Source of the DNA: a virus
Virus genome (UHGV): UHGV-0029170
Length of the DNA stretch: 36,552 nt
Strand: one strand, 5' to 3'
The position numbers were made by a program, and so were the translations under genes. How positions within the stretch are numbered: the stretch's first letter is position 1; every line of letters starts with the position of its first letter. A model generated the notes under the pieces. That model searched no databases and was not told the origin of the DNA. It worked only from the letters and a program-made list of their open reading frames with translations. Shown here in pieces: positions 719-36,420 of this stretch.

Positions 719-756
719 ACAGAGCAAATTTTATCGTGTTTAACAAAAAGTGCTGT
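700..756 (-). promoter_or_regulatory. Degenerate copy of the conserved cassette (Box A CAGCACTTTTTGTTAAAC) upstream of the helicase gene
   Basis: Reverse complement reads cAGCACTTTTTGTTAAACACGAT...TATTATAC, 20-30 nt upstream of helicase ATG at 677. Confidence 0.35.
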
Positions 757-767
757 GAGGTTAAATT

Positions 768-1169
768 ATGGAACAAATGGCAAAGGTAGACAAGCGAACT
801 TTGAACGGCAATAACGGGACGTCACGCGGGAAAGATAAGAAGCCCCGCAAGAAGCCGACAGGCTATTATGTCCTGAAGGATGAAGTAAGGGCGGGACTGA
901 CTACCAGAATGGAATTGGTGATCGAGGCATACGGCGGCATCGCCAAAACAGCAAAGGAGTTGGGCGTTAGCATCCAAGTTGTTCAGCAGTGGATTAAGCG
1001 CGGCATGATTTCAGCCGATGGTGCTTACTTGGTGCATAAGAGTTACCGCCGCAATGACTGCAAAGGCTTCAGGGCTTCATTTTGCCGCCCGGATCTCAGA
1101 TTCGACAGCAACGGCAAGCCGATTACGCGCCGATGCGACCGCCGCGAAATGCTCCGCGTAGTCCGATAG
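768..1169 (+). CDS. Putative HTH DNA-binding protein (Cro/YdaS-like motif), Arg-rich C-terminus
   Basis: ATG at 768 preceded by GAGG 8 nt upstream; segment IAKTAKELGVSIQVVQQWIKRG looks like a helix-turn-helix; function inferred. Confidence 0.4.
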   Translation: MEQMAKVDKRTLNGNNGTSRGKDKKPRKKPTGYYVLKDEVRAGLTTRMELVIEAYGGIAKTAKELGVSIQVVQQWIKRGMISADGAYLVHKSYRRNDCKGFRASFCRPDLRFDSNGKPITRRCDRREMLRVVR

Positions 1170-1189
1170 CACAATTTGACTAACTACCA

Positions 1190-1244: not shown

Positions 1245-2207
1245 GTGGATTTTTACGACGAAAAAGAGGTTTTGCCATACATGCCGGGGATGTGGCGCGA
1301 GGCGCTACAAAATATTTGCGGCATCCACTCCCGATACTTCAACGGCAAACACCAAGACTGCCCGAACTGCGGCGGCAAGGATCGCTTCCGCTGGACGGAC
1401 AAATTAGAGAATCGCGGCGACGGCGGGGCGTATTGCAGCGGATGCGGTGCTGATAAGGGGATCGGATGGTTGATGAAGTTAAGCGGCGAGCCGTATAGCG
1501 AGTGCATCAACATTCTTGGGCGATACCTGGGCAAAGTTCCGCAAGAGTACGTAGTTAAGCGCAACAAGCAGGTTACTCGCGATAACGGGTACGACTACGG
1601 CAAGATGGCAGATCACGATCGCGTCGTGGCGATAATGAACAGAACAGAGGCCGTCGATAGCACGCCTGTAACGCTCTATGAGGGCATTGAAAATGAGTTC
1701 GTTGAATCATACCGGGTTGGCGTAAAAACCCACGAGAACGGCAGGCAAGAGCTATTTCATGCACTACCGATGCAACTGGTACATGAAGACGGGCCGGACG
1801 ATGAATACTGCAACATCTTATTCATTGATGAGGAGGGCCGCGAGAAGATGTTAGCTGGCGACCTGACTTTCGGATCGGTGATCGTAACCAATCAGAGCGA
1901 AGGCGGTAACGGGCCGATTTACCTTGCTCGCTCTTGGGTGGAGGCGATGCACTTCAATATCGCAAGCTCGTTTAAGTGTGACGTGTGGGCATGCATCATC
2001 CCGTCCAACGTTGAGATCGTGGCCTACCGATATAAAGGAAAGGGTGGCGGCGAAGGTAAGCGAGAATTACGAGTCGTATGCAGCAGGAAAGATCGTGATA
2101 TGCTGGCGGCGGCTGAAGAACGCGATATGAAAGTTATCGTTCCGAACAATGACAACTTCAAAGGCGGATTCGAACGAAAGCTCTACGTGGCATCATCCCT
2201 TCTCTGA
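1245..2207 (+). CDS. Putative DNA primase (N-terminal zinc-ribbon CPNCGG...CSGCG)
   Basis: GTG start at 1245 with GGAGG at 1233-1237; Cys4 zinc-ribbon motif HQDCPNCGGKDRFRW...YCSGCGADKG typical of phage primase zinc-binding domains; sits next to helicase and ori-like region. Confidence 0.55.
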   Translation: MDFYDEKEVLPYMPGMWREALQNICGIHSRYFNGKHQDCPNCGGKDRFRWTDKLENRGDGGAYCSGCGADKGIGWLMKLSGEPYSECINILGRYLGKVPQEYVVKRNKQVTRDNGYDYGKMADHDRVVAIMNRTEAVDSTPVTLYEGIENEFVESYRVGVKTHENGRQELFHALPMQLVHEDGPDDEYCNILFIDEEGREKMLAGDLTFGSVIVTNQSEGGNGPIYLARSWVEAMHFNIASSFKCDVWACIIPSNVEIVAYRYKGKGGGEGKRELRVVCSRKDRDMLAAAEERDMKVIVPNNDNFKGGFERKLYVASSLL

Positions 2208-2703
2208 TTAAAACGTGAACAAATTTTAGGTAAGATTGATGATTTCAGTCTTACCTTTTTTTATGCCAAAAATTCAGCAACTTACCAACTGGTCGAACCA
2301 CTTTAGGTAAGATTTAGTAAGATGAATCTTACGTAAATTTCGCGCAAAATTTAACCAATTACACGCCATATATAGATAGTAAGTATATGATAAATAATAA
2401 TATTATTATTATTTCTCTATCTCTCTATACTTATCTTGGTAAGATTTCTCCGGGGTACGTGTCTTTTTTCGCTGGATTTCGCGCCAGATTTTTCATGGAT
2501 ATTCACCTATAGGGATCTTACCATCTTACCGATTTGCGTTAACTTTATGAAATGTATGGAAAAAACCACGTAAGATGCATCTTACTAAATCTTACGTAAA
2601 TTTCGCTCATTTTTTGACCAACCGCAGATAGCACTTTTTGACTTGCGCCGGGAATCGTCATGCGTATACTTAACGAAACGAAACCACAAATGGAGCAATA
2701 TCA
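2208..2703. repeat. AT-rich non-coding region with GGTAAGAT iterons, palindromes and direct repeats; candidate origin of replication / regulatory hub
   Basis: No ORF; GGTAAGA-N13-TCTTACC (2229-2255); GTAAGAT-2nt-ATCTTAC at 2317-2332 and 2570-2585; 18-bp direct repeat ATCTTACGTAAATTTCGC at 2326-2343 and 2589-2606; tandem ATCTTACC x2 at 2515-2530; pure A/T core 2367-2435. Confidence 0.5.
2628..2685 (+). promoter_or_regulatory. Conserved cassette copy in plus orientation (ATAGCACTTTTTGACTTGC...TATACTTAACGAAACGAAAC) upstream of exonuclease gene
   Basis: Shares Box A, a TATACT hexamer and the CGAAACGAAAC tail with the minus-strand copies; followed by RBS GGAG and ATG 2704. Confidence 0.5.
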
Positions 2704-3750
2704 ATGGCTGAAGCAATTTTCAGGGCATACACAAGCAGTGAATTGACCAACGAGCAATATCACGATCCTAATTCCTGGTGCGCGGAGTACGTTAGCGGCT
2801 CAAGCCTCGGCGAGATTTACGCAACATCCCCGGCGCACTGGAAATACAAGGTGCGCGAGGAAACCGCCGCGCTGGCGTTCGGAACCTGTTCGCATACCTG
2901 TATGCTTGAGACGGCAAAATTTAATGGCGAGTACCTGCGGGCGACTTCTCCTGGCGAGGTTAAAGATCTGATTACGTCGAAGTCGGCATTGTCTGCGAAG
3001 CTGAAAGCGTGTGGCCTGATTGGGACGTCCAACAAGGATTACCCGGAACTTCTGGAAATGGCATATCGCGCCGGGATTGACGTAAATGTTTGGTGGGCGA
3101 TTGAACTTTGCGACGAAAGCGCCGCGATGAACTCCGGGCGCAAGCTGGTTAAGGATGTTGATTTCGATGCCGTTGTTCAAATGCGAAGCGTGATGCTGGC
3201 CAACCCGCGACACGCCGCGTGTATCGAATCGCCTACCGCACAGCGTGAATTGTCAATCTTCGGTGAGATCTTCGGCGTCAAGGTCAAGGTTCGACTCGAT
3301 CATGTTGACGTTGTTTCAGATCCAGAACTAATCAAGGAGTGTGGGTTCAACCCGGATGAGGTTTTCGAGGTCGTGGTGATTACCGACTACAAAACCACGC
3401 AATCTTCCAAGCCTGACGATTTCGGGCGACTCGCCTTCAACTTGGGCTACTATCTCAAGATGGCATTGCAGCGCGATCTGTTCGTGAAGACTTACAACGA
3501 AAAACGCCCGGTAGTTGTCAGACTGCTAACGCAGGAGAAAAAATCACCGTTTGCTCCGCTGGCGTTCACCCTGACCAGCCAGCAGATCGAGATCGGTCGC
3601 AAGCAGTATCAAAGCGTGATTCATCAGTATGCGGAATGCGTGAAGCATGATTCATGGCCATCATATGAGTCAAACGCGGCGGAAGTCGTTTTGCCTACTC
3701 CGCAGTTTGTGAAATACATGTTCCCGGACGTATACGGCACAAATAGCTAA
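2704..3750 (+). CDS. PD-(D/E)xK family nuclease (putative recombination exonuclease)
   Basis: 348-aa ORF with RBS; D-x(n)-D/E-x-K-like segment ...DHVDVV...VVVITDYKTT; immediately upstream of Erf and SSB. Confidence 0.55.
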   Translation: MAEAIFRAYTSSELTNEQYHDPNSWCAEYVSGSSLGEIYATSPAHWKYKVREETAALAFGTCSHTCMLETAKFNGEYLRATSPGEVKDLITSKSALSAKLKACGLIGTSNKDYPELLEMAYRAGIDVNVWWAIELCDESAAMNSGRKLVKDVDFDAVVQMRSVMLANPRHAACIESPTAQRELSIFGEIFGVKVKVRLDHVDVVSDPELIKECGFNPDEVFEVVVITDYKTTQSSKPDDFGRLAFNLGYYLKMALQRDLFVKTYNEKRPVVVRLLTQEKKSPFAPLAFTLTSQQIEIGRKQYQSVIHQYAECVKHDSWPSYESNAAEVVLPTPQFVKYMFPDVYGTNS

Positions 3751-3809
3751 ACACTGGTTCGCACTTGTGATATAGTGCGCATTACCAATCAGGAAAAGGA
3801 AACTTTATC

Positions 3810-4466
3810 ATGCGCACATCTGAAAAATTTACCACCATCGCAGCCGCATTAATCAAGGCAAAATCTGGCTTCGTGGCCGCAAAGAAAAGCGGGAAGAACA
3901 ACCATCTTGGGAACACCTATGCGAATCTTGGTGATATCCTCGACGCTATTTCCCCGGCGCTGGAGAAGAACAAAATTATGGTCATTCAATCCATGATGGA
4001 TACCAGCACCGAAAAGGTTATGCACCTCGAAACTATGTTTTTGCATGAAAGCGGCGAGTTCATGGCGTTTCAGTACAATATGCCGATCAGTAAAACAGTC
4101 GAGCAAGCATATGGTTCAACAACATCTTACGCCCGCCGCTATGCACTGGCCGCAGCACTTGGAATCAAGCAGGCGGATGATGATGCAGAAATTACGAAAA
4201 TGACACCGAAAGACTTCAAAAAACGCATTGACGCGTGCGAAGATCTCGAATCGCTTCGGGAGATCTATAAGATGGCGAAACAAACGTTAACGCCTGCGGA
4301 ATGGAAAATGACGGAAGACGATATCACCAAACGCCAGGCAGAACTGAAAGTCACCCCGGCGAACGGCTTCAACCCTGGTAAACCGCAAGAGGTTGCTAAA
4401 CGGGAGCCGGAAAAGGTAGAATCAAAGCCCGAACCAGAAGCGCAAGATATCTCATCTTTCAACTAA
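3810..4466 (+). CDS. erf: Erf-family single-strand annealing protein
   Basis: RBS AGGAAAAGGA before ATG 3810; GSTTSYARRYALAAALGIKQADDDAE matches the conserved Erf core (P22 Erf GATSSYARKY...GIDDAKDAD) from memory. Confidence 0.75.
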   Translation: MRTSEKFTTIAAALIKAKSGFVAAKKSGKNNHLGNTYANLGDILDAISPALEKNKIMVIQSMMDTSTEKVMHLETMFLHESGEFMAFQYNMPISKTVEQAYGSTTSYARRYALAAALGIKQADDDAEITKMTPKDFKKRIDACEDLESLREIYKMAKQTLTPAEWKMTEDDITKRQAELKVTPANGFNPGKPQEVAKREPEKVESKPEPEAQDISSFN

Positions 4467-4495
4467 TTTAACCGGCGGGAAACCGCCCCATAGGA

Positions 4496-4966
4496 ATGAC
4501 AATGCATGTTGTAACAGGTGTTATCCGAAAGGAACCGTATGTCAAGGAAGGCAGCAACAATAACGGGCTGTGGAAAATGTACGCCGTAGACCTGTCGGAG
4601 CGAATGAAGATCCGCAATCGTGATGGCCAGGACGAAACGGTTTACACGAACTACCGCGCCGTTTTCTTTGCCAAAGAAAACATGATTAAGTGGTACGACG
4701 AAGCGCTGCAAATTGATAAGGTGATCAGCGTCACCTGTCGGACGCTTCAGATCGTGAACCGCGAGCACAACGGCACAATTTACAGCCACAATGAAATGAT
4801 TATGCCGCAACTAGAATTCAGCCAGCGCGAACCTGCGCAAAGCGGCGGAGGCAATCAACAATCCGGATGGGGTCAGCCTCAGCAACCGAAGCCGCAGCAA
4901 GCGCCTAAACCGCAAAACAGCGGCGGGAATCCGGGGATGGATTTCGATGATGATATCCCGTTCTAA
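4496..4966 (+). CDS. ssb: SSB-like single-stranded DNA-binding protein with host-SSB-like C-terminal tail
   Basis: C-terminus ...SGWGQPQQPKPQQAPKPQNSGGNPGMDFDDDIPF ends in the E. coli SSB tip DFDDDIPF after a Gly/Gln/Pro-rich linker; N-terminal ~110 aa compatible with a divergent OB fold. Confidence 0.6.
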   Translation: MTMHVVTGVIRKEPYVKEGSNNNGLWKMYAVDLSERMKIRNRDGQDETVYTNYRAVFFAKENMIKWYDEALQIDKVISVTCRTLQIVNREHNGTIYSHNEMIMPQLEFSQREPAQSGGGNQQSGWGQPQQPKPQQAPKPQNSGGNPGMDFDDDIPF

Positions 4967-4977
4967 CTTGACAACTA

Positions 4978-5003
4978 AAGGAGCCGAAAGGCTCCTTTTT
5001 TTT
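4978..5003 (+). terminator. Rho-independent terminator after ssb
   Basis: GGAGCC-GAAA-GGCTCC hairpin (4980-4995) followed by T8 (4996-5003). Confidence 0.75.
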
Positions 5004-5059
5004 CCTGTTTATTGATGCTATTATCTTCGTTACTCAACCAACCAAAGAGGACTAAAAAC

Positions 5060-7246
5060 ATGGCACTATACAGAGAAGGCAAAGCGGCTATGGCCGCCGA
5101 CGGAACCGTTACCGGGACTGGCACAAAATGGCAATCATCGCTTTCGCTGATTCGCCCAGGCGCGACGATTGTGTTTTTATCGTCACCAATTCAAATGGCC
5201 GTCGTAAACAAGGTGGTCAGCGACACTGAAATTAAAGCAATTACCACAAGCAGCGCTGTCGTAGAGTCTACTGACTACGCGATCCTATTAAGTGACTCTC
5301 TGACCGTTGACGGACTGGCGCAAGATGTTGCGGAAACTTTGCGCTACTATCAGTCGCAAGAAACAGTAATTGCGGATGCGGTCGAGTTCTTTAAGGAGTT
5401 CGATTTCGAATCGCTACAAAATCTTGCCAACCAAATCAAGGCAGACTCCGAAGCTGCTGAATCAAGCGCCGAGGCTGCGGCGACGTCTGAAAGTAATGCT
5501 AAAACTTCAGAGACTAAAGCCAAAGAGTCTGAAAATGCGGCAAAAAGTTCAGAGGTAGCAGCGGAGACTGCAAGAGACCAAGTACAGCAGATCATCAATG
5601 ATGCTGGCGAGCAGTCAACGCTGGTTGCGCTTGCTTCACATACGTTGCCAGGAGCATCAAAAGTCGCTCTTGCTGACGGATTTCTGAACGACTACATAAA
5701 GGAAAAAACTTATGAGTCACTTGGTGCTAAATTCGATGGCATAAACGATGATACTGCTGCGATCCAGGCAGGAAATGAGCTTGTAAAGCAGGGTTATTTA
5801 GTAAAGGCAGTAACGCCAAACGGTAGGGCGAGGATTACTTCACAAGTAACATTTTATGCTGGTTCTGGAGCTGTTGACATGGGTACGGCTTATCTGAAGC
5901 CTGATAGGAATTTGATGACTACTGGCTATGCGGCAAGGGTTATTGGAGACAATACGAGAACATATAATCTTGGCAGCAGATTGATAATCAATATGATTGG
6001 CCCATATGGTGAAATAGGTGAAAAGCCACCTACTGACACCAGTAGTATTACTACGCAACTATGCGGCCTAAATATCGACCCAGGTACTAATACACAGGTA
6101 TCTAATTTGGATATTAGTTGGAAGATCTTTGGATTCATGAAAAACGTAAGAATTGGGAGCAAGTCTGTATATTTGATTCGCGCATGGGGGCCAATGCATA
6201 GCAAAGCATGGGTTTGCAATGTTGAGTTTGACTGTCAAAATGACGCTGGAGAAAATATTAACTTCTTCGGCGGCACTGGTTCAGATTGCAGGAACTCTGA
6301 AAAAACTGCGGCTGATATCTATTCAACATCTGCAGGTCATTTTTTAGGACTGAATCTTATTGGTTATAGTCAGGATTATAATGATGTTGATTTAGACATC
6401 AATGGTGGGTACGTTTATAAATTAGCTGGTCAATTTGAAAATAACTCATTACAGCCTTATGTAAAAATGTCATATACTGTCGGTAAGCGACACCCAACTG
6501 TAATACTACAAACAGTTAATATTGATGGTGGTAATGACCAGGCGCAGGAGGCGGGAAACACTGGACGTCCTGCATGGTTTAAGATTGGTAATGGATGTAT
6601 TTTTCATGCTGACGGTGGAACATGGGGTAAGTATGATAAAATGCACAACACAAAGTTATTTGATGTAAGCGCTAATGGGCCTATTGCACTTAGCGTAAAA
6701 AATATTTACTTCGATACTTATGACGGTGTTGATAGCATAGAATGGGGAGCGCACGGAAACCCGATTAGGAATTATGATTTTAGCGATCACTCATTATCTG
6801 GTTGGAAAACAGAATATACATACCCATCAGGTGGTACACCAGTACCTCCGACGATAACGTATGACGATTCTAAGCCAATAGGAAAAGCAGTTAAAATTTC
6901 ATCGTCAGTTAGCAACGGTGGAACAACGACGCTATTCGGTCAGAAGATACCAGTAACTCCTGGAGGCATACTTTACATGTCCACAAATCTTTATTGGGAA
7001 AATATAGTCACAACAAACGGAACAGCATATTTCGGATATACGTTCTATGATGCATTTGGTGATGAAATAACGCACAACAACATAGGTGTAAACTTGAATT
7101 TGCAGCCAGCAAACGCTACAGCACCAGTTTTGTGCTCTGGTAGGGTGCGCATTCCTTCTGGTGCGGCATTTGTGCATGTTGGAATTCGCCATTATCAGAT
7201 GAGCGGAGATGTATGGATGGGTAAGATGAATGCATTTGTTCAATGA
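5060..7246 (+). CDS. Lateral tail fibre / tailspike with pectate-lyase-like (depolymerase-type) central domain; mosaic
   Basis: ATG at 5060 with AGAGGA RBS (ORF track start 5012 lacks RBS); Ala/Ser/Glu-rich fibre-like stretch; motif [17 protein letters not shown] typical of beta-helix pectate-lyase-like tailspikes; sequence after ~5.65 kb is markedly AT-rich by eye. Confidence 0.7.
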
Positions 7247-29558: not shown

Positions 29559-29621
29559 GTTTCGTTTCGATGGGGTAACTATACCAGCTTACCCCCGATC
29601 GGTTTTAGCAATTCGTGCTAT
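29559..29621 (-). promoter_or_regulatory. Conserved promoter/operator cassette copy
   Basis: Minus strand: ATAGCACGAATTGCTAAAACCGATCGGGGGTAAGCTGGTATAGTTACCCCATCGAAACG. Confidence 0.5.
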
Positions 29622-29817
29622 TTGGCAGGCCATCCATGACTTTCAGTTTAACCCACTCGATGCGCCCCTGCGCCTCGGCAATGCCTAACTCATAACTCGC
29701 GCCTTTCTGGTGAGGGCGAACCCGCCAGCGTTTGCCGCCCTCATCGCACCAGTAATAGAACTTCCCGCGAAAGCGCACGTTGTAGGTAAAGCCGTTGAAC
29801 CACATTTTGATGTTCAT
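29605..29817 (-). CDS. Hypothetical protein (basic, Trp/Tyr-rich)
   Basis: 70 aa; stop TAA lies inside Box A of the downstream cassette. Confidence 0.4.
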   Translation of the reverse strand: MNIKMWFNGFTYNVRFRGKFYYWCDEGGKRWRVRPHQKGASYELGIAEAQGRIEWVKLKVMDGLPNSTNC

Positions 29818-29825
29818 GTATCACC

Positions 29826-30050
29826 TCACCACTTAAAATTGCGGGAAATGATCACGCTGCCAACGGCGGAAAGTGCAATCCAGGGCCAGCACAACACAGG
29901 ATAAAGATCGTCTTTGTCGGTAGAGTCCGCAGATTTCAGGAAGGCCCGCGTGAGGAAACAGCCGCACGCATACAGGGCCAGAATAAGAACCACCAGGGCA
30001 ATAATTGCGTAAATCATGATGTTTTTCCTTGTCTTTGGTGGGGTAGCCAT
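29826..30050 (-). CDS. Small membrane protein (two predicted TM segments)
   Basis: IMIYAIIALVVLILALYACGCF and WPWIALSAVGSVIIS hydrophobic stretches; RBS GGAG 7 nt before ATG 30050. Confidence 0.4.
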   Translation of the reverse strand: MATPPKTRKNIMIYAIIALVVLILALYACGCFLTRAFLKSADSTDKDDLYPVLCWPWIALSAVGSVIISRNFKW

Positions 30051-30082
30051 GCAGCAACTCCGGTTAGTGTTTGTGGTTCGTG

Positions 30083-30403
30083 CTATTGCTGGAGTTTTGC
30101 GAAGGCGTCGGCCATCATGCGCAAAACTCGCGCGTGATCTTCAACGTCATAGCCAGGTTCGGTGCGCATGATTTCCCGAATCTTCTCGATCGTGGCGATA
30201 GCCTCCTGAAGTTCACCAGTCAGGAAAGCAACCTGCTGTTCAAGCTCCGCTATTCGTGAGAACGGTTCACGCATGAATGATTCGCACGAGGCATCACTAA
30301 GAGCCCAATCGATCCCGGCGCGAATAACGGCTTTTAACAGCGGGTCGTCGTCTTTGGCGAAGTTGTCGGACGGGATCAGGTGTATGATTTGTGTGGTGTT
30401 CAT
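30083..30403 (-). CDS. Hypothetical protein
   Basis: Start set to ATG 30403 (MNTTQII...) because ORF-track start lies inside the upstream cassette. Confidence 0.4.
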   Translation of the reverse strand: MNTTQIIHLIPSDNFAKDDDPLLKAVIRAGIDWALSDASCESFMREPFSRIAELEQQVAFLTGELQEAIATIEKIREIMRTEPGYDVEDHARVLRMMADAFAKLQQ

Positions 30404-30430
30404 GGTTAGGATCCATCTCTTGTTAGTGTT

Positions 30431-30479
30431 GGGATAGTATGCACCATCCCCGGACGTTCGTTTTAGCAATTAGTGCTAT
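30431..30479 (-). promoter_or_regulatory. Conserved promoter/operator cassette copy
   Basis: Minus strand: ATAGCACTAATTGCTAAAACGAACGTCCGGGGATGGTGCATACTATCCC. Confidence 0.45.
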
Positions 30480-30967
30480 CAAAGGGCGTCTAATTCCGCC
30501 TCAATGAATTCGTACCACTCGTGGCCGTTTGCGGGATCGTGTTCGGTTCCATGCAGCCAGTCCGTATGGGTGGAACAGAATTCGCCGGATTTGTTGAAGT
30601 AAAAGTCGGCCCATGACCGCGCCCAATCGCCGACGCCAGCGAACGTGCCGAACTTGCGGATGTATGCGTCGGTGTATCCGCGCTGCTTCGCTATGCGCTT
30701 CAGTGCGCGAACCAGCAACTTACGCGGAGACGCCTTTGACACTTTCCGCAGGTGGAAAAGCGCGTTTTCCGGCTCGCTACCAACACGGATGGTCAAATCT
30801 TCGTCAGCATCCAGCGGATTGACGATAAATTCGTTAAGGTATCCGCCCTGGATTACGTGCGCTGTGCCTAGTGGCTCGCGCACCTCGACGGCATCGAATA
30901 CGCAGCCGATAAGGTGGCGCTCACGTTCGCGGGCCGCATTGACAACCATAAGTTTGACGGTTTTCAT
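30479..30967 (-). CDS. Hypothetical protein
   Basis: 162-aa ORF; start ATG overlaps stop of upstream gene (TAATG). Confidence 0.45.
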   Translation of the reverse strand: MKTVKLMVVNAARERERHLIGCVFDAVEVREPLGTAHVIQGGYLNEFIVNPLDADEDLTIRVGSEPENALFHLRKVSKASPRKLLVRALKRIAKQRGYTDAYIRKFGTFAGVGDWARSWADFYFNKSGEFCSTHTDWLHGTEHDPANGHEWYEFIEAELDAL

Positions 30968-31185
30968 TATCGGATCTCCTTCACCTGGTGAACTTCGAGA
31001 AGGTTGGTTACTTCACGGATGCCGCAGTCCTCGAATTCCTCTTCGGCCCCTGCTGCCACCCTTAATCTGGTAAACCCGGCGTCATCGTCGATTGCGACTT
31101 CAATAACCTGCTCGCTCGAAAGCTCGATGTATGCGCAGCCGTAGGAATTCAGCTCTTCCAGCAGTGCGATTAAATTGTCGTTCAT
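30967..31185 (-). CDS. Hypothetical small acidic protein
   Basis: 72 aa, net charge about -12 (DDD, EEEFED runs); ATG 31185 with AGGAG RBS. Confidence 0.45.
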   Translation of the reverse strand: MNDNLIALLEELNSYGCAYIELSSEQVIEVAIDDDAGFTRLRVAAGAEEEFEDCGIREVTNLLEVHQVKEIR

Positions 31186-31212
31186 TGCGTTGCTCCTGAT
31201 TGGATTGTTCAC

Positions 31213-31268
31213 TTCAGTAACGCCACTTTATCAAATGACGTTACGGCAGTTTTAACAAAAAGTGCTAT
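31213..31268 (-). promoter_or_regulatory. Conserved cassette copy (variant with GTAACG...CGTTAC inverted repeat)
   Basis: Minus strand: ATAGCACTTTTTGTTAAAACTGCCGTAACGTCATTTGATAAAGTGGCGTTACTG. Confidence 0.45.
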
Positions 31269-31450
31269 TCTTTTTCGCCGCTGAACGCTGCCCGATACCC
31301 ACGGCGGAACCCGTTAATCTCCGACAGGCGGCATACGCCAATAATCATGCACAGCATTCCGATCGTCTGCCAGCCTACGTGGTCATGCAGTGCCAGGCCG
31401 CCCAGGAAGAAAGCCCAATACAGCGCGAGTTTCTTTTTGCTTACTTTCAT
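31265..31450 (-). CDS. Small membrane protein
   Basis: 61 aa; hydrophobic LALYWAFFLGGLAL and IGMLCMIIGV segments. Confidence 0.4.
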   Translation of the reverse strand: MKVSKKKLALYWAFFLGGLALHDHVGWQTIGMLCMIIGVCRLSEINGFRRGYRAAFSGEKE

Positions 31451-31692
31451 ACTTTCACCTCAAATAGAACGTTGTTTTCGTATGGCCTATTGGCATACAT
31501 GGCGATCTTTTCGTCCGGCATACGGCAGGCGGGCCAGAATTCTTCGTCCTCAGTAGTTACCTGGTCGTCCTGCAAAATCCATACTTCATCAAGGCCAGGG
31601 CCGAACCTGGCTTCATACTCGCGGCCAGGTGTGAAATAGGTGGATAGCGGCGAATAGCCAGCGTGCGTGCAAATTACTTTTACCGTTTCCAT
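31447..31692 (-). CDS. Hypothetical protein
   Basis: 81 aa; start overlaps upstream stop (TAATG). Confidence 0.4.
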   Translation of the reverse strand: METVKVICTHAGYSPLSTYFTPGREYEARFGPGLDEVWILQDDQVTTEDEEFWPACRMPDEKIAMYANRPYENNVLFEVKV

Positions 31693-31994
31693 TAGTAGAT
31701 CCCGTTAGTCCAAACGTAGCCGTGTTCGATTATCTCGCGCAGCTTAACCTTCTTCGGCGCTGGATTTACTCCGTCTCCGCCAGTGTAGAACCCTGTTCCA
31801 TACGCAAAATGAACCTGCTTCGCGAACAGTCCGCCGCGCGCCTGGATGTAAAGTCGGTTGCGCATGGCCAGACCTCTAAGCGTGTTGACCTGCTCGATGG
31901 GGTCGCCTTTTACATTCGAGATCTTGCACATTACTGGCTTTTCGCCAAATTGCCCGGTTAAGCAGTGGCGGTCGAAGTCTGATAAACGTATCAT
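31692..31994 (-). CDS. Hypothetical protein
   Basis: 100-aa ORF in the co-directional array. Confidence 0.4.
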   Translation of the reverse strand: MIRLSDFDRHCLTGQFGEKPVMCKISNVKGDPIEQVNTLRGLAMRNRLYIQARGGLFAKQVHFAYGTGFYTGGDGVNPAPKKVKLREIIEHGYVWTNGIY

Positions 31995-32003
31995 CCAGAC
32001 ACC

Positions 32004-32375
32004 TCAAAGCTGATTTGCAAAGATGTGCCAGACGTGATCTTCTGGCGTGCGTTTCATTAGTTTGTGCGCCTTGCGTGCCATGCGCTTATAGTCGCGGGCG
32101 GTAAGTTTCGTGGGGTCGGCAACGAACGATTCAACAATTAACCCATCGCAATGATATTCCGGCAGCCATTCCCGATGGGTTCGCCATTCGTTGAAAGTGG
32201 TTAGCTGGATAACGGAATGCAAGTCACTGTGAAGGTGCTCCCCGCGCTCGCCGTAATGGAAAGCTCCGCGAATTTTGCCATCATTGCCTACGTGCAAAAG
32301 GTGAATGCGGCTTTTCTTGCCTTCGAAGTTGGTTCCGACGATGGCGACAACTGCGTTTTTGACGATCTGCTTCAT
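32004..32375 (-). CDS. Hypothetical protein (His-rich)
   Basis: 123 aa; first ORF downstream of cassette copy 32400-32448. Confidence 0.45.
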   Translation of the reverse strand: MKQIVKNAVVAIVGTNFEGKKSRIHLLHVGNDGKIRGAFHYGERGEHLHSDLHSVIQLTTFNEWRTHREWLPEYHCDGLIVESFVADPTKLTARDYKRMARKAHKLMKRTPEDHVWHIFANQL

Positions 32376-32399
32376 GGTGAATCTCCGTTGTTTGGTGTA

Positions 32400-32448
32400 T
32401 GGCCATTATGCCCGATCTGCTGACCGGGCGTTTAGCAAAAAGTGCTAT
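32400..32448 (-). promoter_or_regulatory. Conserved promoter/operator cassette copy
   Basis: Minus strand: ATAGCACTTTTTGCTAAACGCCCGGTCAGCAGATCGGGCATAATGGCC. Confidence 0.5.
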
Positions 32449-32646
32449 TCAGAAACAGAGCGCCTCACGCTCCAGGCTGGCCAGTGACGGAAAGCTGAAT
32501 TTTGTAACGTGGTACGAGCCGCCAACATAGCCGGAAATGCTGATATTGTTGAACTCAACCTCAACACTGATAATCTTCATGTTCTTGCTGAAGGCGTACA
32601 TTGCAAGCGCACGGTGCGCCCGCGCCAGGAATTCGAATTGGTTCAT
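32449..32646 (-). CDS. Hypothetical protein
   Basis: 65 aa; ATG overlaps upstream stop (ATGA). Confidence 0.35.
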   Translation of the reverse strand: MNQFEFLARAHRALAMYAFSKNMKIISVEVEFNNISISGYVGGSYHVTKFSFPSLASLEREALCF

Positions 32647-32900
32647 TTAAAGATCGCCCCTTTGATTTTGTTCCAGAAAGCGAATGGCTGACGCTGCGGC
32701 TTCAGTTCCACGATATCGTGATCATAGAATCCGCGATGCTTGCCGCAAAGGAGCGGCTGCACGCCATCCGTTACCATATCGCCAATGAAGAACCGCTTGC
32801 CGCTATCCATGAAGTAAAGGCCGTGGCATACGCCTGGCGCGGCATGAGTTGCGGTATCTGGCAGGCTGTATACCCTGCCGCGAGATTTGAATTGCTGCAT
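32643..32900 (-). CDS. Hypothetical protein
   Basis: Start set to ATG 32900 (MQQFK...) with AGGAGA RBS. Confidence 0.4.
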   Translation of the reverse strand: MQQFKSRGRVYSLPDTATHAAPGVCHGLYFMDSGKRFFIGDMVTDGVQPLLCGKHRGFYDHDIVELKPQRQPFAFWNKIKGAIFK

Positions 32901-32941
32901 TATCCTGTCTCCTTGCATAATTTGGTCGTTAATCGACTTCG

Positions 32942-32990
32942 TGATAATTATGCCCGATCCTCTGACCGGGCGTTTAGCAATGCGTGCTAT
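32942..32990 (-). promoter_or_regulatory. Conserved promoter/operator cassette copy
   Basis: Minus strand: ATAGCACGCATTGCTAAACGCCCGGTCAGAGGATCGGGCATAATTATCAC. Confidence 0.5.
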
Positions 32991-33307
32991 TTCAGGCCGC
33001 GAAGGTCAATCTTCGATCTTGCCCAATCAGGGAAGCGAGCCATTTCGCCAACCTGAACCATTTTGTTTCCGCCCGGCCCCTTATCCACCCATGAATCAGG
33101 CGAGTAGCTCAGTAGGCGAACATTTTCAACGGTCGACTCATAGGCCCAAATCGCCCCGTCTTCATCAATGGCAACCGTGTTAGTCCAAACTGGCACGTCA
33201 AGCGACTGCATATCGAACGTGCCAGGGATGTTAATCTGGAAGGCTACAACGTGGCGCTGCGTGATGGTGGCCACTACTTGCTCGCCGGATTTAACTTCGT
33301 TAATCAT
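32987..33307 (-). CDS. Hypothetical protein
   Basis: Start set to ATG 33307 (MINEVKSGEQ...) with AAGGAG RBS. Confidence 0.4.
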   Translation of the reverse strand: MINEVKSGEQVVATITQRHVVAFQINIPGTFDMQSLDVPVWTNTVAIDEDGAIWAYESTVENVRLLSYSPDSWVDKGPGGNKMVQVGEMARFPDWARSKIDLRGLK

Positions 33308-33317
33308 TGCGTTCTCC

Positions 33318-33530
33318 TTACAGGAACATTCCAGCCAGGCGCAGGCGGGTAATGATGCTATCCCGTTTAGCGCGCAGGCCATCATAGTAATCTTCCAGTT
33401 GCGCATCCCATGACGGCAGGTCAAGCATAAGATTCATTTCGTTGCACACCACCTTCAGCGCGTGGAAGTGTTGCTCTACCGCGCGACGGTGAAATGCTGC
33501 ATTGAGTGGGTTGTTTTGGTTGCCGATCAT
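33318..33530 (-). CDS. Hypothetical protein
   Basis: 70 aa; first ORF downstream of cassette copy 33545-33602. Confidence 0.4.
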   Translation of the reverse strand: MIGNQNNPLNAAFHRRAVEQHFHALKVVCNEMNLMLDLPSWDAQLEDYYDGLRAKRDSIITRLRLAGMFL

Positions 33531-33544
33531 GTTTACGCTCCTCT

Positions 33545-33602
33545 GTTTCGATGGGGTAATGATAGCGCATCACCCCGATTGCGTTTTAACAAAAAGTGCT
33601 AT
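33545..33602 (-). promoter_or_regulatory. Conserved promoter/operator cassette copy
   Basis: Minus strand: ATAGCACTTTTTGTTAAAACGCAATCGGGGTGATGCGCTATCATTACCCCATCGAAAC. Confidence 0.5.
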
Positions 33603-34093
33603 TACTGTGGGATCTGGAAGCAGAGTTCCCGCCAGTTGCGATGCTCGCGGCCAGTGTTGCCCAGGAAGCAGACTGTTCGCGCAATGTGGCCGTACTGCTC
33701 CGAACCGCGAATCCATTCGCCCAGGTAATCATTCGCGTCGTCGTCATCCGGCAGGCAGTGGCGCGGGCGCATCTTGAATGCGAAGACGTCGCCGTTACCG
33801 TCGATGGCAATGTGGGTGGCCCCGCCCTGGATGGCCGTCTGTGCGGTTGCAGTCGTGGTGCTTTTGTCGATGCCAGCCAGGAAGTTAGAGAATTCGTTCA
33901 TGGCCATGCTCTTTTGCTCCGGCTCCGCCTCGACAAGCAGAAGTGTATCGTTGCCGACCATCGCAAAGAAGATCGCCGCTGTCATATTCGACTTCTTCAC
34001 AATCTTGCCTTCGCGCTTGCGCATCATCACTGCGTCATCTTCCAGCCAGTAAATCAGGCCATTAAGGGTGTTGAGGTATTCGCGAGATTTCAT
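33602..34093 (-). CDS. Hypothetical protein
   Basis: 163 aa; RBS GGAGCA before ATG 34093; first ORF downstream of cassette copy 34110-34169. Confidence 0.45.
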   Translation of the reverse strand: MKSREYLNTLNGLIYWLEDDAVMMRKREGKIVKKSNMTAAIFFAMVGNDTLLLVEAEPEQKSMAMNEFSNFLAGIDKSTTTATAQTAIQGGATHIAIDGNGDVFAFKMRPRHCLPDDDDANDYLGEWIRGSEQYGHIARTVCFLGNTGREHRNWRELCFQIPQ

Positions 34094-34109
34094 TGTGGTG
34101 CTCCGTTGT

Positions 34110-34169
34110 TCGTTTCGATGGGGTTACTATAGCAAGCCGCCCCGATCGTGTTTTAACAAAAAGTGCTAT
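34110..34169 (-). promoter_or_regulatory. Conserved promoter/operator cassette copy (extended -10-like TGCTATAGT)
   Basis: Minus strand: ATAGCACTTTTTGTTAAAACACGATCGGGGCGGCTTGCTATAGTAACCCCATCGAAACGAAC. Confidence 0.5.
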
Positions 34170-34381
34170 TTGAAGTTGTGAACCTGGTTCCCGCCGCTGT
34201 GGTCGTCAATGTCAACGCCGTCGCAGGTGACGTAAAAGCCGCGAATTACGGTGAAGCGCCACTTGCCTAACCAGTGGAAGTATACGCCGTGCTCGCTGCC
34301 ATGGACGGCTTTGGTTGATGAGTATGGGATCGGCATCCCGGCGAAGGTGCGAAGTTTGGTTGTTGCTGAAAATCGTGGCAT
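34166..34381 (-). CDS. Hypothetical protein
   Basis: ORF 34166-34387; start probably ATG 34381 (AGGAGG RBS 7 nt upstream). Confidence 0.4.
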   Translation of the reverse strand: MPRFSATTKLRTFAGMPIPYSSTKAVHGSEHGVYFHWLGKWRFTVIRGFYVTCDGVDIDDHSGGNQVHNFK

Positions 34382-34450
34382 GGCCATTCCTCCTGGCGTT
34401 TGCCGTGCTGGTGGTGGGAATATAGCGCCACCGAAGCGGCGCTATTGTGA

Positions 34451-34558
34451 TTATTTACCCTGGCGCGCAAGGTAGCGCTCTTTGAGTTTCTGCCAGTGCC
34501 AGCGCATAACGTGTTCGTTATGGTAGTTGCTGGTTGAATATGGATTCTTCTTGCTCAT
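34451..34558 (-). CDS. Very small basic protein, about 35 aa (not in ORF track)
   Basis: Hand translation MSKKNPYSTSNYHNEHVMRWHWQKLKERYLARQGK; GGAG 8 nt upstream of ATG 34558; fills gap between neighbouring genes. Confidence 0.25.
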   Translation of the reverse strand: MSKKNPYSTSNYHNEHVMRWHWQKLKERYLARQGK

Positions 34559-34575
34559 CTTCATCTCCAGGTTGC

Positions 34576-34761
34576 TTACTTGATTCGAACTTCAACTTCA
34601 ATGTCGGACTGCGGCGCGAAGAGTTGGGCCTTTCCATTAACGCGAATGGTAAGAATGTTCCCCTTGCGATCTGCTGCGAGAACCAGGCGAAACTTGCCAG
34701 CAAACTTAACCATCATTCCCGGCTTAACTTCGCTCATCTTGATAACCTTATCCATCTTCAT
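34576..34761 (-). CDS. Hypothetical small protein
   Basis: Start set to ATG 34761 (MKMDKVIKM...) with GAGGTGA RBS; first ORF downstream of cassette copy 34770-34830. Confidence 0.4.
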   Translation of the reverse strand: MKMDKVIKMSEVKPGMMVKFAGKFRLVLAADRKGNILTIRVNGKAQLFAPQSDIEVEVRIK

Positions 34762-34769
34762 CACCTCAG

Positions 34770-34830
34770 TTCGTTGTCGATGGGTAAATAATACCGGATC
34801 TCGCCATCGGCGTTTTAGCAAAAAGTGCTA
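34770..34830 (-). promoter_or_regulatory. Conserved promoter/operator cassette copy
   Basis: Minus strand: ATAGCACTTTTTGCTAAAACGCCGATGGCGAGATCCGGTATTATTTACCCATCGACAACGAAC. Confidence 0.5.
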
Positions 34831-35037
34831 TCTTTCCACCTCGTGCATATCGCCAACCGAAAGATAATAAGCGATATCAAGGCGGCTCATTGTGGGATGA
34901 GGCCAGCCGCATTCATGCCAGATAACATCGCCCTCGCCTTTAGTCCACATGGTTTCGCCATCCCAGCGCCAAAGGCGGTTATTGAGGCGCGATCCGTAGA
35001 CCGCGCCAGGTTTTACATCGCTCGCCTTAAAATTCAT
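34828..35037 (-). CDS. Hypothetical protein
   Basis: ORF 34828-35088; likely start at internal ATG 35037 (MNFKASDVKPG...). Confidence 0.35.
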   Translation of the reverse strand: MNFKASDVKPGAVYGSRLNNRLWRWDGETMWTKGEGDVIWHECGWPHPTMSRLDIAYYLSVGDMHEVER

Positions 35038-35179
35038 AATCGACAACCCCGAACTCGTTAACGATCTGCGCCTTGTAAAAGCCACCATTTGCCGCCAGAT
35101 TGTAGCACGCCGCCACGGTCTCGAACTCGCGCACTTCCGGCTTGCTGTTTTCGTGTTCCCAGGTAATCAGAGTAATCAT
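35027..35179 (-). CDS. Hypothetical small protein, about 50 aa
   Basis: Start set to ATG 35179 (MITLITWEH...) with GAGGAAACC RBS, because ORF-track start lies inside the upstream cassette. Confidence 0.35.
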   Translation of the reverse strand: MITLITWEHENSKPEVREFETVAACYNLAANGGFYKAQIVNEFGVVDYEF

Positions 35180-35191
35180 TTCGGTTTCCTC

Positions 35192-35255
35192 GGTTCGTTG
35201 TCGATGAAGAGATAATACCCGATCGCTCTGACCGGGTTTTAACAAAAAGTGCTAT
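35192..35255 (-). promoter_or_regulatory. Conserved promoter/operator cassette copy
   Basis: Minus strand: ATAGCACTTTTTGTTAAAACCCGGTCAGAGCGATCGGGGTATTATCTCTTCATCGACAACGAAC. Confidence 0.5.
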
Positions 35256-36093: not shown

Positions 36094-36287
36094 GTGTTTC
36101 CCCCACATTTACGGCGTTTGTGTGTGTTTGGTAAGGCTATCTTACTGGCTCAAGGCCTTGTCGTCAAAGGGTTTGTGCGTGTGTGGTAAGATTCGGAAGC
36201 ATCCCCTATATACCCCTTTACATATATCGCGCGGCGGAACATCTAAAATTTACGGCTCTCGCAAGATGATTCCGGTAGCCATGCCGG

Positions 36288-36420
36288 GAGAAATCTTACC
36301 AAACATATATAGATAGAGAGAGTAATAATAATAATATTGTTATTTATCATATACTTATATATTTATTATAGTCTTATATTGGTCACTTTTTGTGCAATTT
36401 TCAGGTAAGATTTTTCCTCC
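36288..36420. repeat. AT-rich core flanked by inverted GGAGAAATCTTACC / GGTAAGATTTTTCC arms; partial inverted copy of 2367-2452
   Basis: 36288-36357 matches the reverse complement of 2367-2452 over ~70-85 bp (shared GGAGAAATCTTACCAA...AATAATAATAATATTRTTATTTATCATATACTTA); second arm at 36404-36417. Confidence 0.5.

What the first reader, a model, noticed from the sequence alone, without database searches (positions are those of the whole stretch)
2208..2703. AT-rich iteron region between primase and recombination genes: candidate replication origin
About 500 bp with no ORF, containing at least 9 copies of the heptamer GTAAGAT/ATCTTAC in inverted (2229-2255; 2317-2332; 2570-2585), tandem (2515-2530) and isolated arrangements, an 18-bp direct repeat ATCTTACGTAAATTTCGC (2326-2343 and 2589-2606), and a ~70-bp stretch of pure A/T (2367-2435) that would melt easily. 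It lies next to the primase-like and helicase genes. This architecture (iterons plus a DNA-unwinding element) is typical of origins; alternatively the iterons are operators of a regulator.
Basis: partly seen in the sequence, partly recalled or inferred. Interest (0 to 1): 0.7.

Follow-up and report, generated by a model that had tools for sequence, protein, structure and literature searches.

The report
Candidate replication origin of T1-like phage
A conserved 500-bp non-coding stretch in a T1-like Klebsiella phage has twelve copies of a 7-base protein-binding motif, six on each side of an easily melted AT-rich block, which makes it the best candidate yet for the unmapped replication origin of this phage family, though it could instead be a gene-control region.

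Summary
GTAAGAT occurs 20 times in the window (2.8 expected), and 10 exact plus 2 one-mismatch copies lie in 2230-2595, six on each side of an AT block (2367-2436; 83% A+T, not pure A/T). Motif positions are 92% invariant across 35 distinct Weberviruses, against 53% for the rest of the spacer.

New findings:
- A roughly 130-bp paralogue of the core module lies inverted at 36283-36411, and the two AT blocks are the two least stable duplex stretches in the window.
- The same two-locus layout occurs in Eclunavirus and T1, but with different motifs (CGGAGGAT; TAAC-core). More lineages carry yet other motifs upstream of exo. The binder is therefore phage-encoded and fast-evolving.
- The first inverted pair is also the primase terminator.
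- The family encodes a Cro-fold HTH protein (768-1169) and, outside the window, an MCM-like DUF3987 helicase with a variable C-terminal winged helix, the protein class that reads SaPI origins.

Best reading (about 0.5): a SaPI/SPP1-style iteron plus unwinding-element origin, one of two copies. Main rival (about 0.3): an operator array for the Cro-like regulator of the exo operon and early promoters. Published T1-like genome papers report no origin. Nothing has been tested experimentally.

The parts
768..1169 (+). Gene for a 133-aa Cro-fold HTH protein (T1 gp23-like). It is one candidate binder of the heptamers.
1245..2207 (+). Primase gene (T1 gp24-like) with an N-terminal zinc ribbon.
   Evidence: Pfam Zn_Ribbon_Prim 8.5e-11. 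PHROG 510 'DNA primase'. Annotated as primase in Skenny.
2228..2263 (+). Intrinsic terminator of the primase gene. Its stem arms are themselves a heptamer pair: GGTAAGATTGA / TCAGTCTTACC (sites 2230-2236 + and 2248-2254 -).
   Evidence: 12-bp stem, 5-nt loop, T7 tail. RNA fold -16.3 kcal/mol, z -4.47. Annotated as a terminator in Skenny. Invariant in 35 relatives.
2279..2285 (-). Degenerate heptamer (AACTTAC, one mismatch).
2306..2333 (.). Site triplet A: GTAAGAT (2307), GTAAGAT (2317) and ATCTTAC (2326), oriented -> -> <-. The last two form the 16-bp palindrome GTAAGATGAATCTTAC.
   Evidence: Spacings of 10 and 9 bp. Invariant in relatives.
2326..2455 (+). Core module of about 130 bp: ATCTTAC, a degenerate DR-like box (..GCGCAAAATTTAACCAAT), the AT block, then GGTAAGATTTCTCCGGG. 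It is paralogous to 36283-36411 on the opposite strand.
   Evidence: Four-way alignment of both loci in the window and in Skenny, 80% mean column identity.
2367..2436 (.). AT-rich block (83% A+T), the candidate DNA-unwinding element. It contains the invariant core TAAGTATATGATA (2380-2392).
   Evidence: Nearest-neighbour stability z = 5.5, second least stable stretch in the window after its paralogue. The 13-mer occurs only in the two modules.
2439..2445 (+). Heptamer immediately to the right of the AT block (context TGGTAAGATTTCTCCGGG).
2515..2529 (-). Tandem heptamer pair ATCTTACcATCTTAC, 8-bp period.
2569..2596 (.). Site triplet B: GTAAGAT (2570), ATCTTAC (2579) and ATCTTAC (2589), oriented -> <- <-. 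It includes the palindrome GTAAGATGCATCTTAC and is the mirror image of triplet A.
   Evidence: (I1, D4).
2628..2670 (+). Probable promoter of the exo-erf-ssb operon: a T1-family DR box ATAGCACTTTTTGACTTGC (2628-2646), 18 nt, then the -10-like TATACT (2665-2670). The RBS GGAG is at 2692-2695 and the ATG at 2704.
   Evidence: Same geometry as 10 DR boxes upstream of early genes. The block is invariant in relatives. The DR family is described for phage TLS (PMC11447400). The promoter assignment is an inference.
2704..3750 (+). Exonuclease VIII / DUF3799 gene, first gene of the recombination operon downstream of the cluster.
36130..36193 (.). Second-locus sites near the leftward early promoter: GGTAAGGCTATCTTAC (36130-36146) overlaps the -10, and GGTAAGATT (36185-36193) lies upstream of the -35.
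   Evidence: Promoter-like TTGACG-17-TAAGAT at 36167-36139. The -10 overlap is not conserved in Skenny.
36283..36411 (-). Paralogous core module in inverted orientation: ATCTTAC (36293-36299), the AT block (36306-36375, 86% A+T, least stable stretch in the window) and GTAAGAT (36405-36411). It lies in the divergent early-gene intergenic region.
   Evidence: It corresponds to the record ends of Skenny.

Best explanation
The region is a nucleoprotein assembly site of the 'iterons plus DNA-unwinding element' type. It is most likely one of two paralogous replication origins of the phage.

Proposed mechanism:
1. A phage-encoded sequence-specific protein binds the twelve GTAAGAT heptamers. Six lie on each side of the AT block, in both orientations, and many are spaced about one helical turn apart or arranged as 16-bp palindromes.
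2. The bound arrays bend and strain the DNA. A conserved IHF-like core inside the AT block may help.
3. The 70-bp AT block, the most meltable sequence in the genome together with its paralogue, opens.
4. The MCM-like DUF3987 helicase is loaded there, as SaPI Rep helicases load at their origins, and the adjacent zinc-ribbon primase primes synthesis by the host polymerase.

The binder is either the C-terminal winged helix of the DUF3987 helicase or the Cro-fold HTH protein encoded 1 kb upstream. The same sites may also modulate the exo-erf-ssb promoter that lies just downstream.

Shown: the anatomy, its conservation, the paralogy of the two loci, the motif turnover between lineages, and the protein folds. 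Inferred: binding, melting, helicase loading and initiation.
For: 1. Motif cluster far above chance: 20 copies against 2.8 expected, ten of them within 366 bp.
2. Purifying selection on the sites: site positions are 92% invariant, against 53% for other intergenic positions and 66% for the coding flanks, in 35 distinct Weberviruses. All ten sites are present in about 37 IMG/VR genomes. The region is retained in 343 of 347 phage records.
3. The two AT blocks are the two least stable duplex stretches of the window (z 5.5 and 5.8; next highest 3.5).
4. A paralogous module of about 130 bp, in inverted orientation, lies in the divergent early region.
5. Same layout, different motif:
   - Eclunavirus: CGGAGGAT, with 7 sites at the primase-exo spacer and 10 at the early region, including runs at 10-bp period.
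   - T1: GTGTAACAG and CGATTAAC arrays around AT blocks at the same two loci.
   - At the exo-upstream locus only: Snitter has CTATAACA, another lineage has TGTATGAAA, and other genera have NAACA-type motifs.
   - In each of three complete genomes, these two loci hold the strongest clusters of short repeats in non-coding DNA.
6. The regular promoter of exo lies downstream of the arrays and is separate from them.
8. The SaPI origin matches the anatomy: 6-12 short iterons, half on each side of a central AT-rich region, pointing in opposite directions, read by the winged helix of Rep (PMC9371898).
9. The SPP1 initiator G38P binds two distant loci made of repeat boxes plus an unwinding element (PMC5737612).
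10. Papers on T1-like phages report that no origin was found.
Against: - There are no replication data of any kind.
- The cluster is linked to the exo operon rather than to the replication genes. In T1 it lies between cor and exo, about 5 kb from the primase.
- In E. coli relatives, motif pairs sit directly upstream of the -35 of a canonical exo promoter. That is a typical position for a transcription factor.
- A Cro-fold regulator is encoded next door, and two sites form 16-bp palindromes typical of Cro/CI operators.
- Cumulative GC skew shows no inflection at this locus. Its minimum is at the second locus, where transcription also diverges.
- I found no simple correspondence between the HTH recognition helix and the motif, and the binder is unidentified.
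- T1 uses partly different motifs at its two loci.
Confidence: 0.5

Rival explanations
1. A purely transcriptional control region. The heptamers are operators of the Cro-fold HTH protein (T1 gp23-like). This protein would switch the exo-erf-ssb recombination operon and the divergent early promoters on or off, much as Cro acts at OL and OR in lambda, where PL drives the red genes. The AT block would serve as a bendable element or UP-like element that allows looping between operator sets.
For: - Cro fold of the adjacent protein, with its most variable segment in the HTH helices.
- Two 16-bp palindromes with 7-2-7 geometry.
- The cluster always lies upstream of exo, even when the cassette is inverted and moved relative to the primase.
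- Tandem sites at about -49 and -58 of canonical exo promoters in E. coli relatives.
- A site upstream of, and in this phage overlapping, the leftward early promoter at 36139-36193.
- Exactly two loci, as with lambdoid OL and OR.
Against: - Twelve sites spread over 366 bp, around a 70-bp block of extreme instability, is far more than known Cro operators need.
- In Webervirus the nearest site is about 80 nt upstream of the inferred exo transcription start, so it cannot occlude the promoter.
- No site lies at the regulator's own promoter (600-770) or at the roughly ten other DR-type promoters.
- The overlap with the early -10 is not conserved in Skenny.
- The helix-to-motif correspondence is weak.
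Confidence: 0.3
2. The heptamer is part of a promoter: TAAGAT as a -10 hexamer, with TGGTAAGAT as an extended -10. The AT block is then the UP element of strong host-polymerase promoters that fire outwards from the module.
For: - Three sites read TGGTAAGAT (2437-2445, 36184-36192, and 36293-36301 on the minus strand), a perfect TGnTAnnnT.
- The one at 2439 points towards exo, and the one at 36293 points towards the leftward early genes.
- The scan calls TTGACG-17-TAAGAT at 36167-36139.
Against: - In Eclunavirus the equivalent positions carry CGGAGGAT. Other lineages have GTGTAACAG, CTATAACA or TGTATGAAA, which cannot act as -10 hexamers.
- Most copies lack a TG or any -35, and many sit in palindromes or tandems.
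- The promoter scan finds no excess of promoters in the region.
- Exo has its own promoter downstream.
Confidence: 0.05
3. Some other DNA transaction: a packaging or recombination site, or sites for a nucleoid-organising or centromere-like protein. For example, inverted 130-bp modules could promote segment inversion, or the sites could bind terminase.
For: - The second locus coincides with the start of the T1 record, which is annotated there as a 2.8-kb repeat_region. That this start is the pac end, and the repeat the terminal redundancy, is from memory.
- The two modules are inverted repeats.
- The exo cassette is rearranged between genera.
Against: - The locus studied here is far from the terminase genes and the pac site.
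- A virulent phage has no need for a partition system.
- The strict conservation of twelve oriented sites around an AT block is not what a recombination hot spot requires.
Confidence: 0.07

Closest known systems
SaPI replication origins (read by the Rep initiator-helicases of Staphylococcus aureus pathogenicity islands)
   Same: - Six to twelve short repeats, half on each side of a central AT-rich region, with opposed orientations, spanning about 320-370 bp.
- Specificity differs between elements.
- The cognate helicase is SF3 or MCM-like (SF6) with a C-terminal winged helix, and a separate or fused primase is encoded alongside (PMC9371898).
- Here: 12 heptamers arranged six and six around a 70-bp AT block across 366 bp, plus an MCM-like DUF3987 helicase with a variable winged helix and a zinc-ribbon primase.
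   Different: - In SaPIs the origin lies immediately downstream of rep. Here the helicase gene is many kilobases away and the cluster lies upstream of exo.
- There are two paralogous copies per genome.
- An additional Cro-fold protein is a candidate binder.
- One repeat pair doubles as a terminator.
- No binding or replication data exist.
Bacillus phage SPP1 oriL / oriR
   Same: The initiator G38P binds two distant loci, each made of repeated boxes next to an AT-rich unwinding element. A 356-bp fragment is sufficient for origin function (PMC5737612).
   Different: SPP1 oriL lies inside the initiator gene. The repeats are longer AB boxes placed on one side of the unwinding element. The initiator family (pfam09524) and the DnaB-type helicase with its loader are unrelated to the proteins here.
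Satellite phage P4 ori and crr (from memory, not checked here)
   Same: Two separated loci carry the same octamer in direct and inverted copies next to AT-rich DNA, bound by the C-terminal domain of a primase-helicase. The T1 record notes its primase as similar to P4-type alpha proteins.
   Different: P4 alpha is a single fused protein with an SF3-type helicase. Here the primase and an MCM-like helicase are separate proteins. The resemblance is recalled from memory and was not tested.
Lambdoid OL/OR operators bound by Cro/CI
   Same: Two operator loci per genome. There are palindromic sites of about 16-17 bp. The binder has a Cro fold. One locus lies upstream of the recombination (exo) genes, and the other sits between divergent early operons.
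   Different: Lambdoid loci have three sites within about 80 bp that overlap the promoters. Here there are 12 sites over 366 bp, mostly remote from the promoter, many as single or tandem half-sites, surrounding a 70-bp AT block. There are no sites at the regulator's own promoter.
21-nt intergenic direct repeats of TLS/T1 (aaATAGCACnnnTTGnTAAAA)
   Same: Present in this window: 13 copies at up to 3 mismatches, against 1.1 expected. A degenerate copy lies at 2628-2646, inside the region. Described in PMC11447400.
   Different: This is a different element from the heptamers. The DR boxes sit singly, 18-19 nt upstream of -10-like hexamers, in front of many genes. The heptamers occur only at two loci.

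Membership tests
Iteron + DUE replication origin (SaPI / SPP1 / plasmid type) | A cluster of several copies of one short motif, far above chance | tested here: met
   20 copies in the window against 2.8 expected; 10 exact and 2 near-exact within 366 bp.
Iteron + DUE replication origin (SaPI / SPP1 / plasmid type) | An AT-rich, easily melted segment adjacent to or between the repeats | tested here: met
   2367-2436 is 83% A+T with a stability z of 5.5. It and its paralogue are the two extremes of the window.
Iteron + DUE replication origin (SaPI / SPP1 / plasmid type) | SaPI type: repeats on both sides of the AT region, at least two per side, in opposed orientations | tested here: met
   Six sites to the left (2230-2332) and six to the right (2439-2595), with both orientations on each side.
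Iteron + DUE replication origin (SaPI / SPP1 / plasmid type) | Repeat sequence is specific to the element and changes between relatives while the layout is kept | tested here: met
   GTAAGAT, CGGAGGAT, GTGTAACAG/CGATTAAC, CTATAACA, TGTATGAAA and NAACA motifs in different Drexlerviridae lineages at the same locus.
Iteron + DUE replication origin (SaPI / SPP1 / plasmid type) | A cognate initiator encoded by the element binds the repeats | not testable with these tools
   Two candidates exist: the Cro-fold HTH protein and the winged helix of the MCM-like DUF3987 helicase. Binding has not been shown, and the covariation analysis was inconclusive.
Iteron + DUE replication origin (SaPI / SPP1 / plasmid type) | Replication starts there, or the fragment confers replication | not testable with these tools
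   No data. GC skew is uninformative at this locus. No plasmid carries the module on its own.
Cro/CI-type operator region | A Cro/CI-fold regulator is encoded by the phage | tested here: met
Cro/CI-type operator region | Palindromic operators of about 14-18 bp | tested here: met
   GTAAGATGAATCTTAC (2317-2332) and GTAAGATGCATCTTAC (2570-2585). However, most of the other sites are single or tandem half-sites.
Cro/CI-type operator region | Operators overlap or abut the regulated promoters | tested here: inconclusive
   In Webervirus the nearest site is about 80 nt upstream of the inferred exo transcription start. In E. coli relatives, pairs lie at about -49 and -58. At the early promoter the overlap is present here but absent in Skenny.
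Cro/CI-type operator region | Sites at the regulator's own promoter (autoregulation) | tested here: not met
   No GTAAGAT between the helicase and HTH genes (600-770).
Intrinsic (rho-independent) terminator, for 2228-2263 only | A stable hairpin followed by a U-run, just after a stop codon | tested here: met
   12-bp stem, T7 tail, -16.3 kcal/mol, z -4.47, 21 nt after the primase stop codon. Annotated in Skenny.
Sigma-70 -10 element (TAAGAT as a promoter hexamer) | The TAnnnT hexamer is kept at equivalent positions in relatives | tested here: not met
   The equivalent sites read CGGAGGAT in Eclunavirus, and GTGTAACAG, CTATAACA or TGTATGAAA elsewhere.

The most novel reading that the evidence does not exclude
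T1-like phages replicate from two paralogous, oppositely oriented SaPI-type origins. The short iteron 'code' of these origins turns over rapidly between genera. It is read by the diversifying winged helix of an MCM-like helicase, possibly together with a Cro-fold protein acting as a replisome organiser rather than a repressor. The same sites are reused as a terminator stem and as promoter-proximal control sites for the recombination operon.
Probability: 0.25. Interest if true: 0.7.

Novelty: new member of a known kind. Interest (0 to 1): 0.6.

Why it matters
T1 is one of the classical T phages, and Drexlerviridae (including hundreds of Klebsiella therapy candidates) are heavily sequenced. Even so, their replication origin has never been located. 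The two genome papers I could read say explicitly that no origin or iterons were found.

This work points to two specific fragments of 130-500 bp and two specific proteins that can be tested directly. If confirmed, three things would follow:
- A bacterial virulent phage would be shown to use an MCM-like self-loading helicase at an iteron/AT-block origin, a design so far documented in satellites (SaPIs).
- The family would offer a natural series of changed-specificity pairs of origin and initiator.
- It would provide a practical handle for phage engineering, for example origin-carrying plasmids as decoys or amplifiable vectors.

If the region instead proves to be an operator array, it would define the regulon of the only obvious transcription factor of these phages.

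Tried and rejected
- Heptamer as a -10 promoter element: rejected because relatives carry non-promoter motifs at the same places, and the scan shows no excess of promoters.
- Structured RNA: no Rfam match at E-value up to 1.
- Small protein genes in the spacer: the three 41-45-aa ORFs are intact in only 57-80% of relatives.
- Host-factor sites: unlikely, because the motif differs between phages of closely related hosts.
- An IHF-like core (TATCATATACTTA) is conserved in both modules, but only by a one-mismatch consensus match. I treat it as a lead.
- Identifying the binder by covariation:
  - Three-way and five-way comparisons of the HTH protein, primase, SF2 helicase, DUF3987 helicase, gp16-like protein and VRR-NUC nuclease show all at about 50-77% pairwise identity.
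  - Both the HTH helices and the DUF3987 winged helix are the most variable windows of their own proteins, so the test does not discriminate between them.
  - The recognition-helix variants do not map simply onto the motifs.
- GC skew: it follows transcription direction. The minimum is at the second locus and there is no signal at this one.
- PDB sequence searches with the primase and the DUF3987 protein found nothing useful.
- Literature: several searches found no transcript-start, origin-mapping or motif data for Drexlerviridae.

Full report
**Identity and context.** The window is a Webervirus (Drexlerviridae, T1-like Klebsiella siphophage). It is 93-95% identical to many deposited genomes and is the reverse complement of the phage Skenny record. 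The finding covers the 496-bp spacer between the primase gene (1245-2207; Zn_Ribbon_Prim) and the exonuclease VIII gene (2704-3750), which is followed by erf and ssb. Upstream lie a 133-aa HTH gene (768-1169) and, divergently, an SF2 helicase gene.

**Observation.** GTAAGAT/ATCTTAC occurs 20 times in the window, against 2.8 +/- 1.6 in shuffles.
- Ten exact copies lie between 2230 and 2595, with two one-mismatch copies at 2248-2254 and 2279-2285.
- That puts six sites to the left and six to the right of an AT-rich block (2367-2436).
- They form two mirror-image triplets, 2307/2317/2326 (-> -> <-) and 2570/2579/2589 (-> <- <-). Each triplet contains a 16-bp palindrome and a neighbour 10 bp away.
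- There is also a tandem pair with an 8-bp period (2515/2523), a single site abutting the AT block (2439), and an inverted pair at 2230/2248.
- The 18-bp direct repeat is exact and belongs to a 34-nt repeat family.
- The AT block is 83% A+T rather than pure A/T. It and one other place are still by far the least stable duplex stretches of the window (z 5.5 and 5.8; next highest 3.5).
- The inverted pair 2228-2256 followed by T7 is a good intrinsic terminator for the primase gene and is annotated as such in Skenny.
- No Rfam family matches, and the small ORFs are not conserved.

**Selection.** The whole spacer is retained at 84-96% identity in 343 of 347 matching phage records. In an alignment of 35 distinct Webervirus sequences, the heptamer positions are 92% invariant, against 53% for the rest of the spacer and 66% for the coding flanks. 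Other invariant blocks are TAAGTATATGATA inside the AT block, ACGTAAATTTCGC next to two sites, and a block at 2628-2670.

**A second copy.** Five further sites lie at 36130-36411 (four exact heptamers and one degenerate half-site), in the large intergenic region between the two divergent clusters of small early genes.
- A module of about 130 bp (ATCTTAC, a degenerate DR-like box, the AT block, GGTAAGATTTCTCCGGG) is shared by the two loci at about 80% identity and in opposite orientation.
- The 13-mer core occurs only in these two modules.
- The other extreme of duplex instability is the AT block of this second copy.

**Relatives with a different motif.**
- Eclunavirus (primase 58% identical) has the same layout in the same spacer, but the repeat is ATCCTCCG/CGGAGGAT, including four copies at a 10-bp period.
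- In the complete genome of phage Phc this motif clusters at exactly the two homologous loci: 7 copies at the primase-exo spacer and 10 at the early region.
- In T1 the cluster upstream of exo uses GTGTAACAG around an AT block. The early region uses CGATTAAC (three at a 9-bp period) plus a GTGTAACA pair.
- At the exo-upstream locus, Erwinia phage Snitter uses CTATAACA, another lineage uses TGTATGAAA, and many E. coli genera use NAACA-type pentamers or heptamers.
- In each of three complete genomes, the strongest non-coding clusters of short repeats are at these two loci.
- A motif that changes between lineages while the layout stays the same indicates a phage-encoded, sequence-specific binder. 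It rules out the idea that TAAGAT is simply a sigma-70 -10 hexamer.

**Promoters.**
- The window contains 13 copies of the 21-nt T1-family direct repeat described for phage TLS.
- Ten of them precede early genes and are followed, after 18-19 nt, by a -10-like hexamer and a conserved leader.
- A degenerate copy at 2628-2646, with TATACT at 2665-2670, is the likely exo promoter. In E. coli relatives exo has a canonical TTGACT-17-TAcAAT promoter.
- The arrays and AT block are therefore extra DNA upstream of an ordinary promoter.
- In the E. coli relatives, however, the last motif pair lies directly upstream of the -35 (about -49 and -58). In this window one site lies upstream of, and one overlaps, the leftward early promoter. 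Some transcriptional role for the binder is therefore plausible.

**Synteny.** In T1 the cluster lies between cor and exo, about 5 kb from the primase. In Webervirus, Eclunavirus and one other lineage it follows the primase. In Snitter it again precedes exo, away from the primase. So the cluster travels with the exo-erf-ssb cassette. The regulatory model requires that linkage; the origin model only permits it.

**Candidate binders.**
- HTH protein.
  - The family is confined to Drexlerviridae.
  - It also has a conserved, disordered basic N-terminal arm and a conserved C-terminal extension.
  - Its HTH helices are the most variable part of the family, and the recognition helix is invariant within Webervirus. 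I could not derive a simple helix-to-motif rule across genera.
- DUF3987 helicase (T1 gp9-like).
  - The gene lies outside the window, in the early cluster that starts at the second locus.
  - It ends in a canonical winged helix that matches ORC/Cdc6 winged helices.
  - That winged helix is the most variable part of the protein.
  - This agrees with the published view that DUF3987 proteins are replicative SF6 helicases with a C-terminal wHTH (PMC4889955).

**Comparison with known systems.**
- SaPI origins consist of 6-12 penta- or hexanucleotide iterons, half on each side of a central AT-rich region and pointing in opposite directions. They are read by the C-terminal winged helix of a self-loading SF3 or MCM-like Rep helicase, with a primase encoded alongside (PMC9371898). 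The present region matches in number, size, symmetry, span and protein class.
- The SPP1 initiator binds two distant loci made of repeat boxes plus an unwinding element (PMC5737612), which is a precedent for two copies.
- The Cro fold of the neighbouring protein, the 16-bp palindromes, the two-locus pattern and the position upstream of recombination genes also recall lambdoid OL/OR.

**Verdict.** I judge the origin reading the most likely (about 0.5), because of:
- the extreme AT blocks flanked by balanced arrays;
- the paralogous second copy;
- the motif turnover between lineages;
- the matching helicase class;
- the absence of any other iteron cluster in genomes whose origin is unknown.

A purely transcriptional operator array for the Cro-like protein is the main rival (about 0.3), and the two are not mutually exclusive. 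Nothing here shows binding, melting or initiation. The decisive experiments are listed under next steps.

Noticed in passing
window 36130-36412 (and beyond the window end): A second cluster of GTAAGAT sites with an inverted paralogue of the AT-block module, in the divergent early-gene intergenic region. Relatives (Skenny 49380-49520, T1 120-150) also have a separate GATTGC/GATTAC repeat cluster next to it. The T1 record starts inside this region and annotates its first 2.8 kb as a repeat_region; that this marks the pac end and terminal redundancy is from memory.
   Followed up: partly
window 29603-35255 (- strand), 738-756 (-), 1166-1184 (+), 2628-2646 (+): Thirteen copies of the T1/TLS 21-nt repeat ATAGCACnnnTTGnTAAAA (1.1 expected). 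Each early-gene copy is followed after 18-19 nt by a -10-like hexamer and a conserved leader (..CATCGAAACGAA..). They look like a phage-specific promoter class whose -35 region is replaced by the repeat box. The TLS authors list their function as an open question.
   Followed up: partly
window 35236-35218, 32971-32953, 32429-32411 (- strand, spacers of DR promoters): Several DR-promoter spacers contain the same GC-rich palindrome CCCGGTCAGnnGATCGGG, which includes a GATC (Dam) site, between the repeat box and the -10-like hexamer.
   Followed up: no
window 2228-2263: The primase terminator hairpin is built from an inverted pair of the binding heptamers. In Eclunavirus the equivalent terminator is an ordinary GC-rich hairpin without the motif (L039 4936-4963). 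The double use therefore seems specific to Webervirus.
   Followed up: partly
window 2380-2392 and 36345-36357: The invariant 13-mer TAAGTATATGATA in both AT blocks reads, on the other strand, TATCATATACTTA. That is one mismatch from the IHF consensus WATCAANNNNTTR and has an A/T tract beside it.
   Followed up: partly
window 2208-7246 compared with T1 (L044 252-5282): The cassette [repeat cluster - exo - erf - ssb] is inverted and lies on the other side of the tail-fibre gene in Webervirus relative to T1.
   Followed up: partly
plasmid record CP124687.1 (hit H140): A 49,647-bp 'plasmid' of Paraclostridium bifermentans in PLSDB is a complete Webervirus genome (91% identity over the spacer). 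It is probably a contaminant or a mis-filed phage.
   Followed up: no
Skenny L002 40598-41728 (outside the window): The T1 gp16-like 'DNA repair exonuclease' has an N-terminal match to sigma-70 region 4 (Pfam Sigma70_r4_2, 4.7e-6). This is a further HTH-bearing protein that could be the factor reading the DR-type promoters.
   Followed up: no
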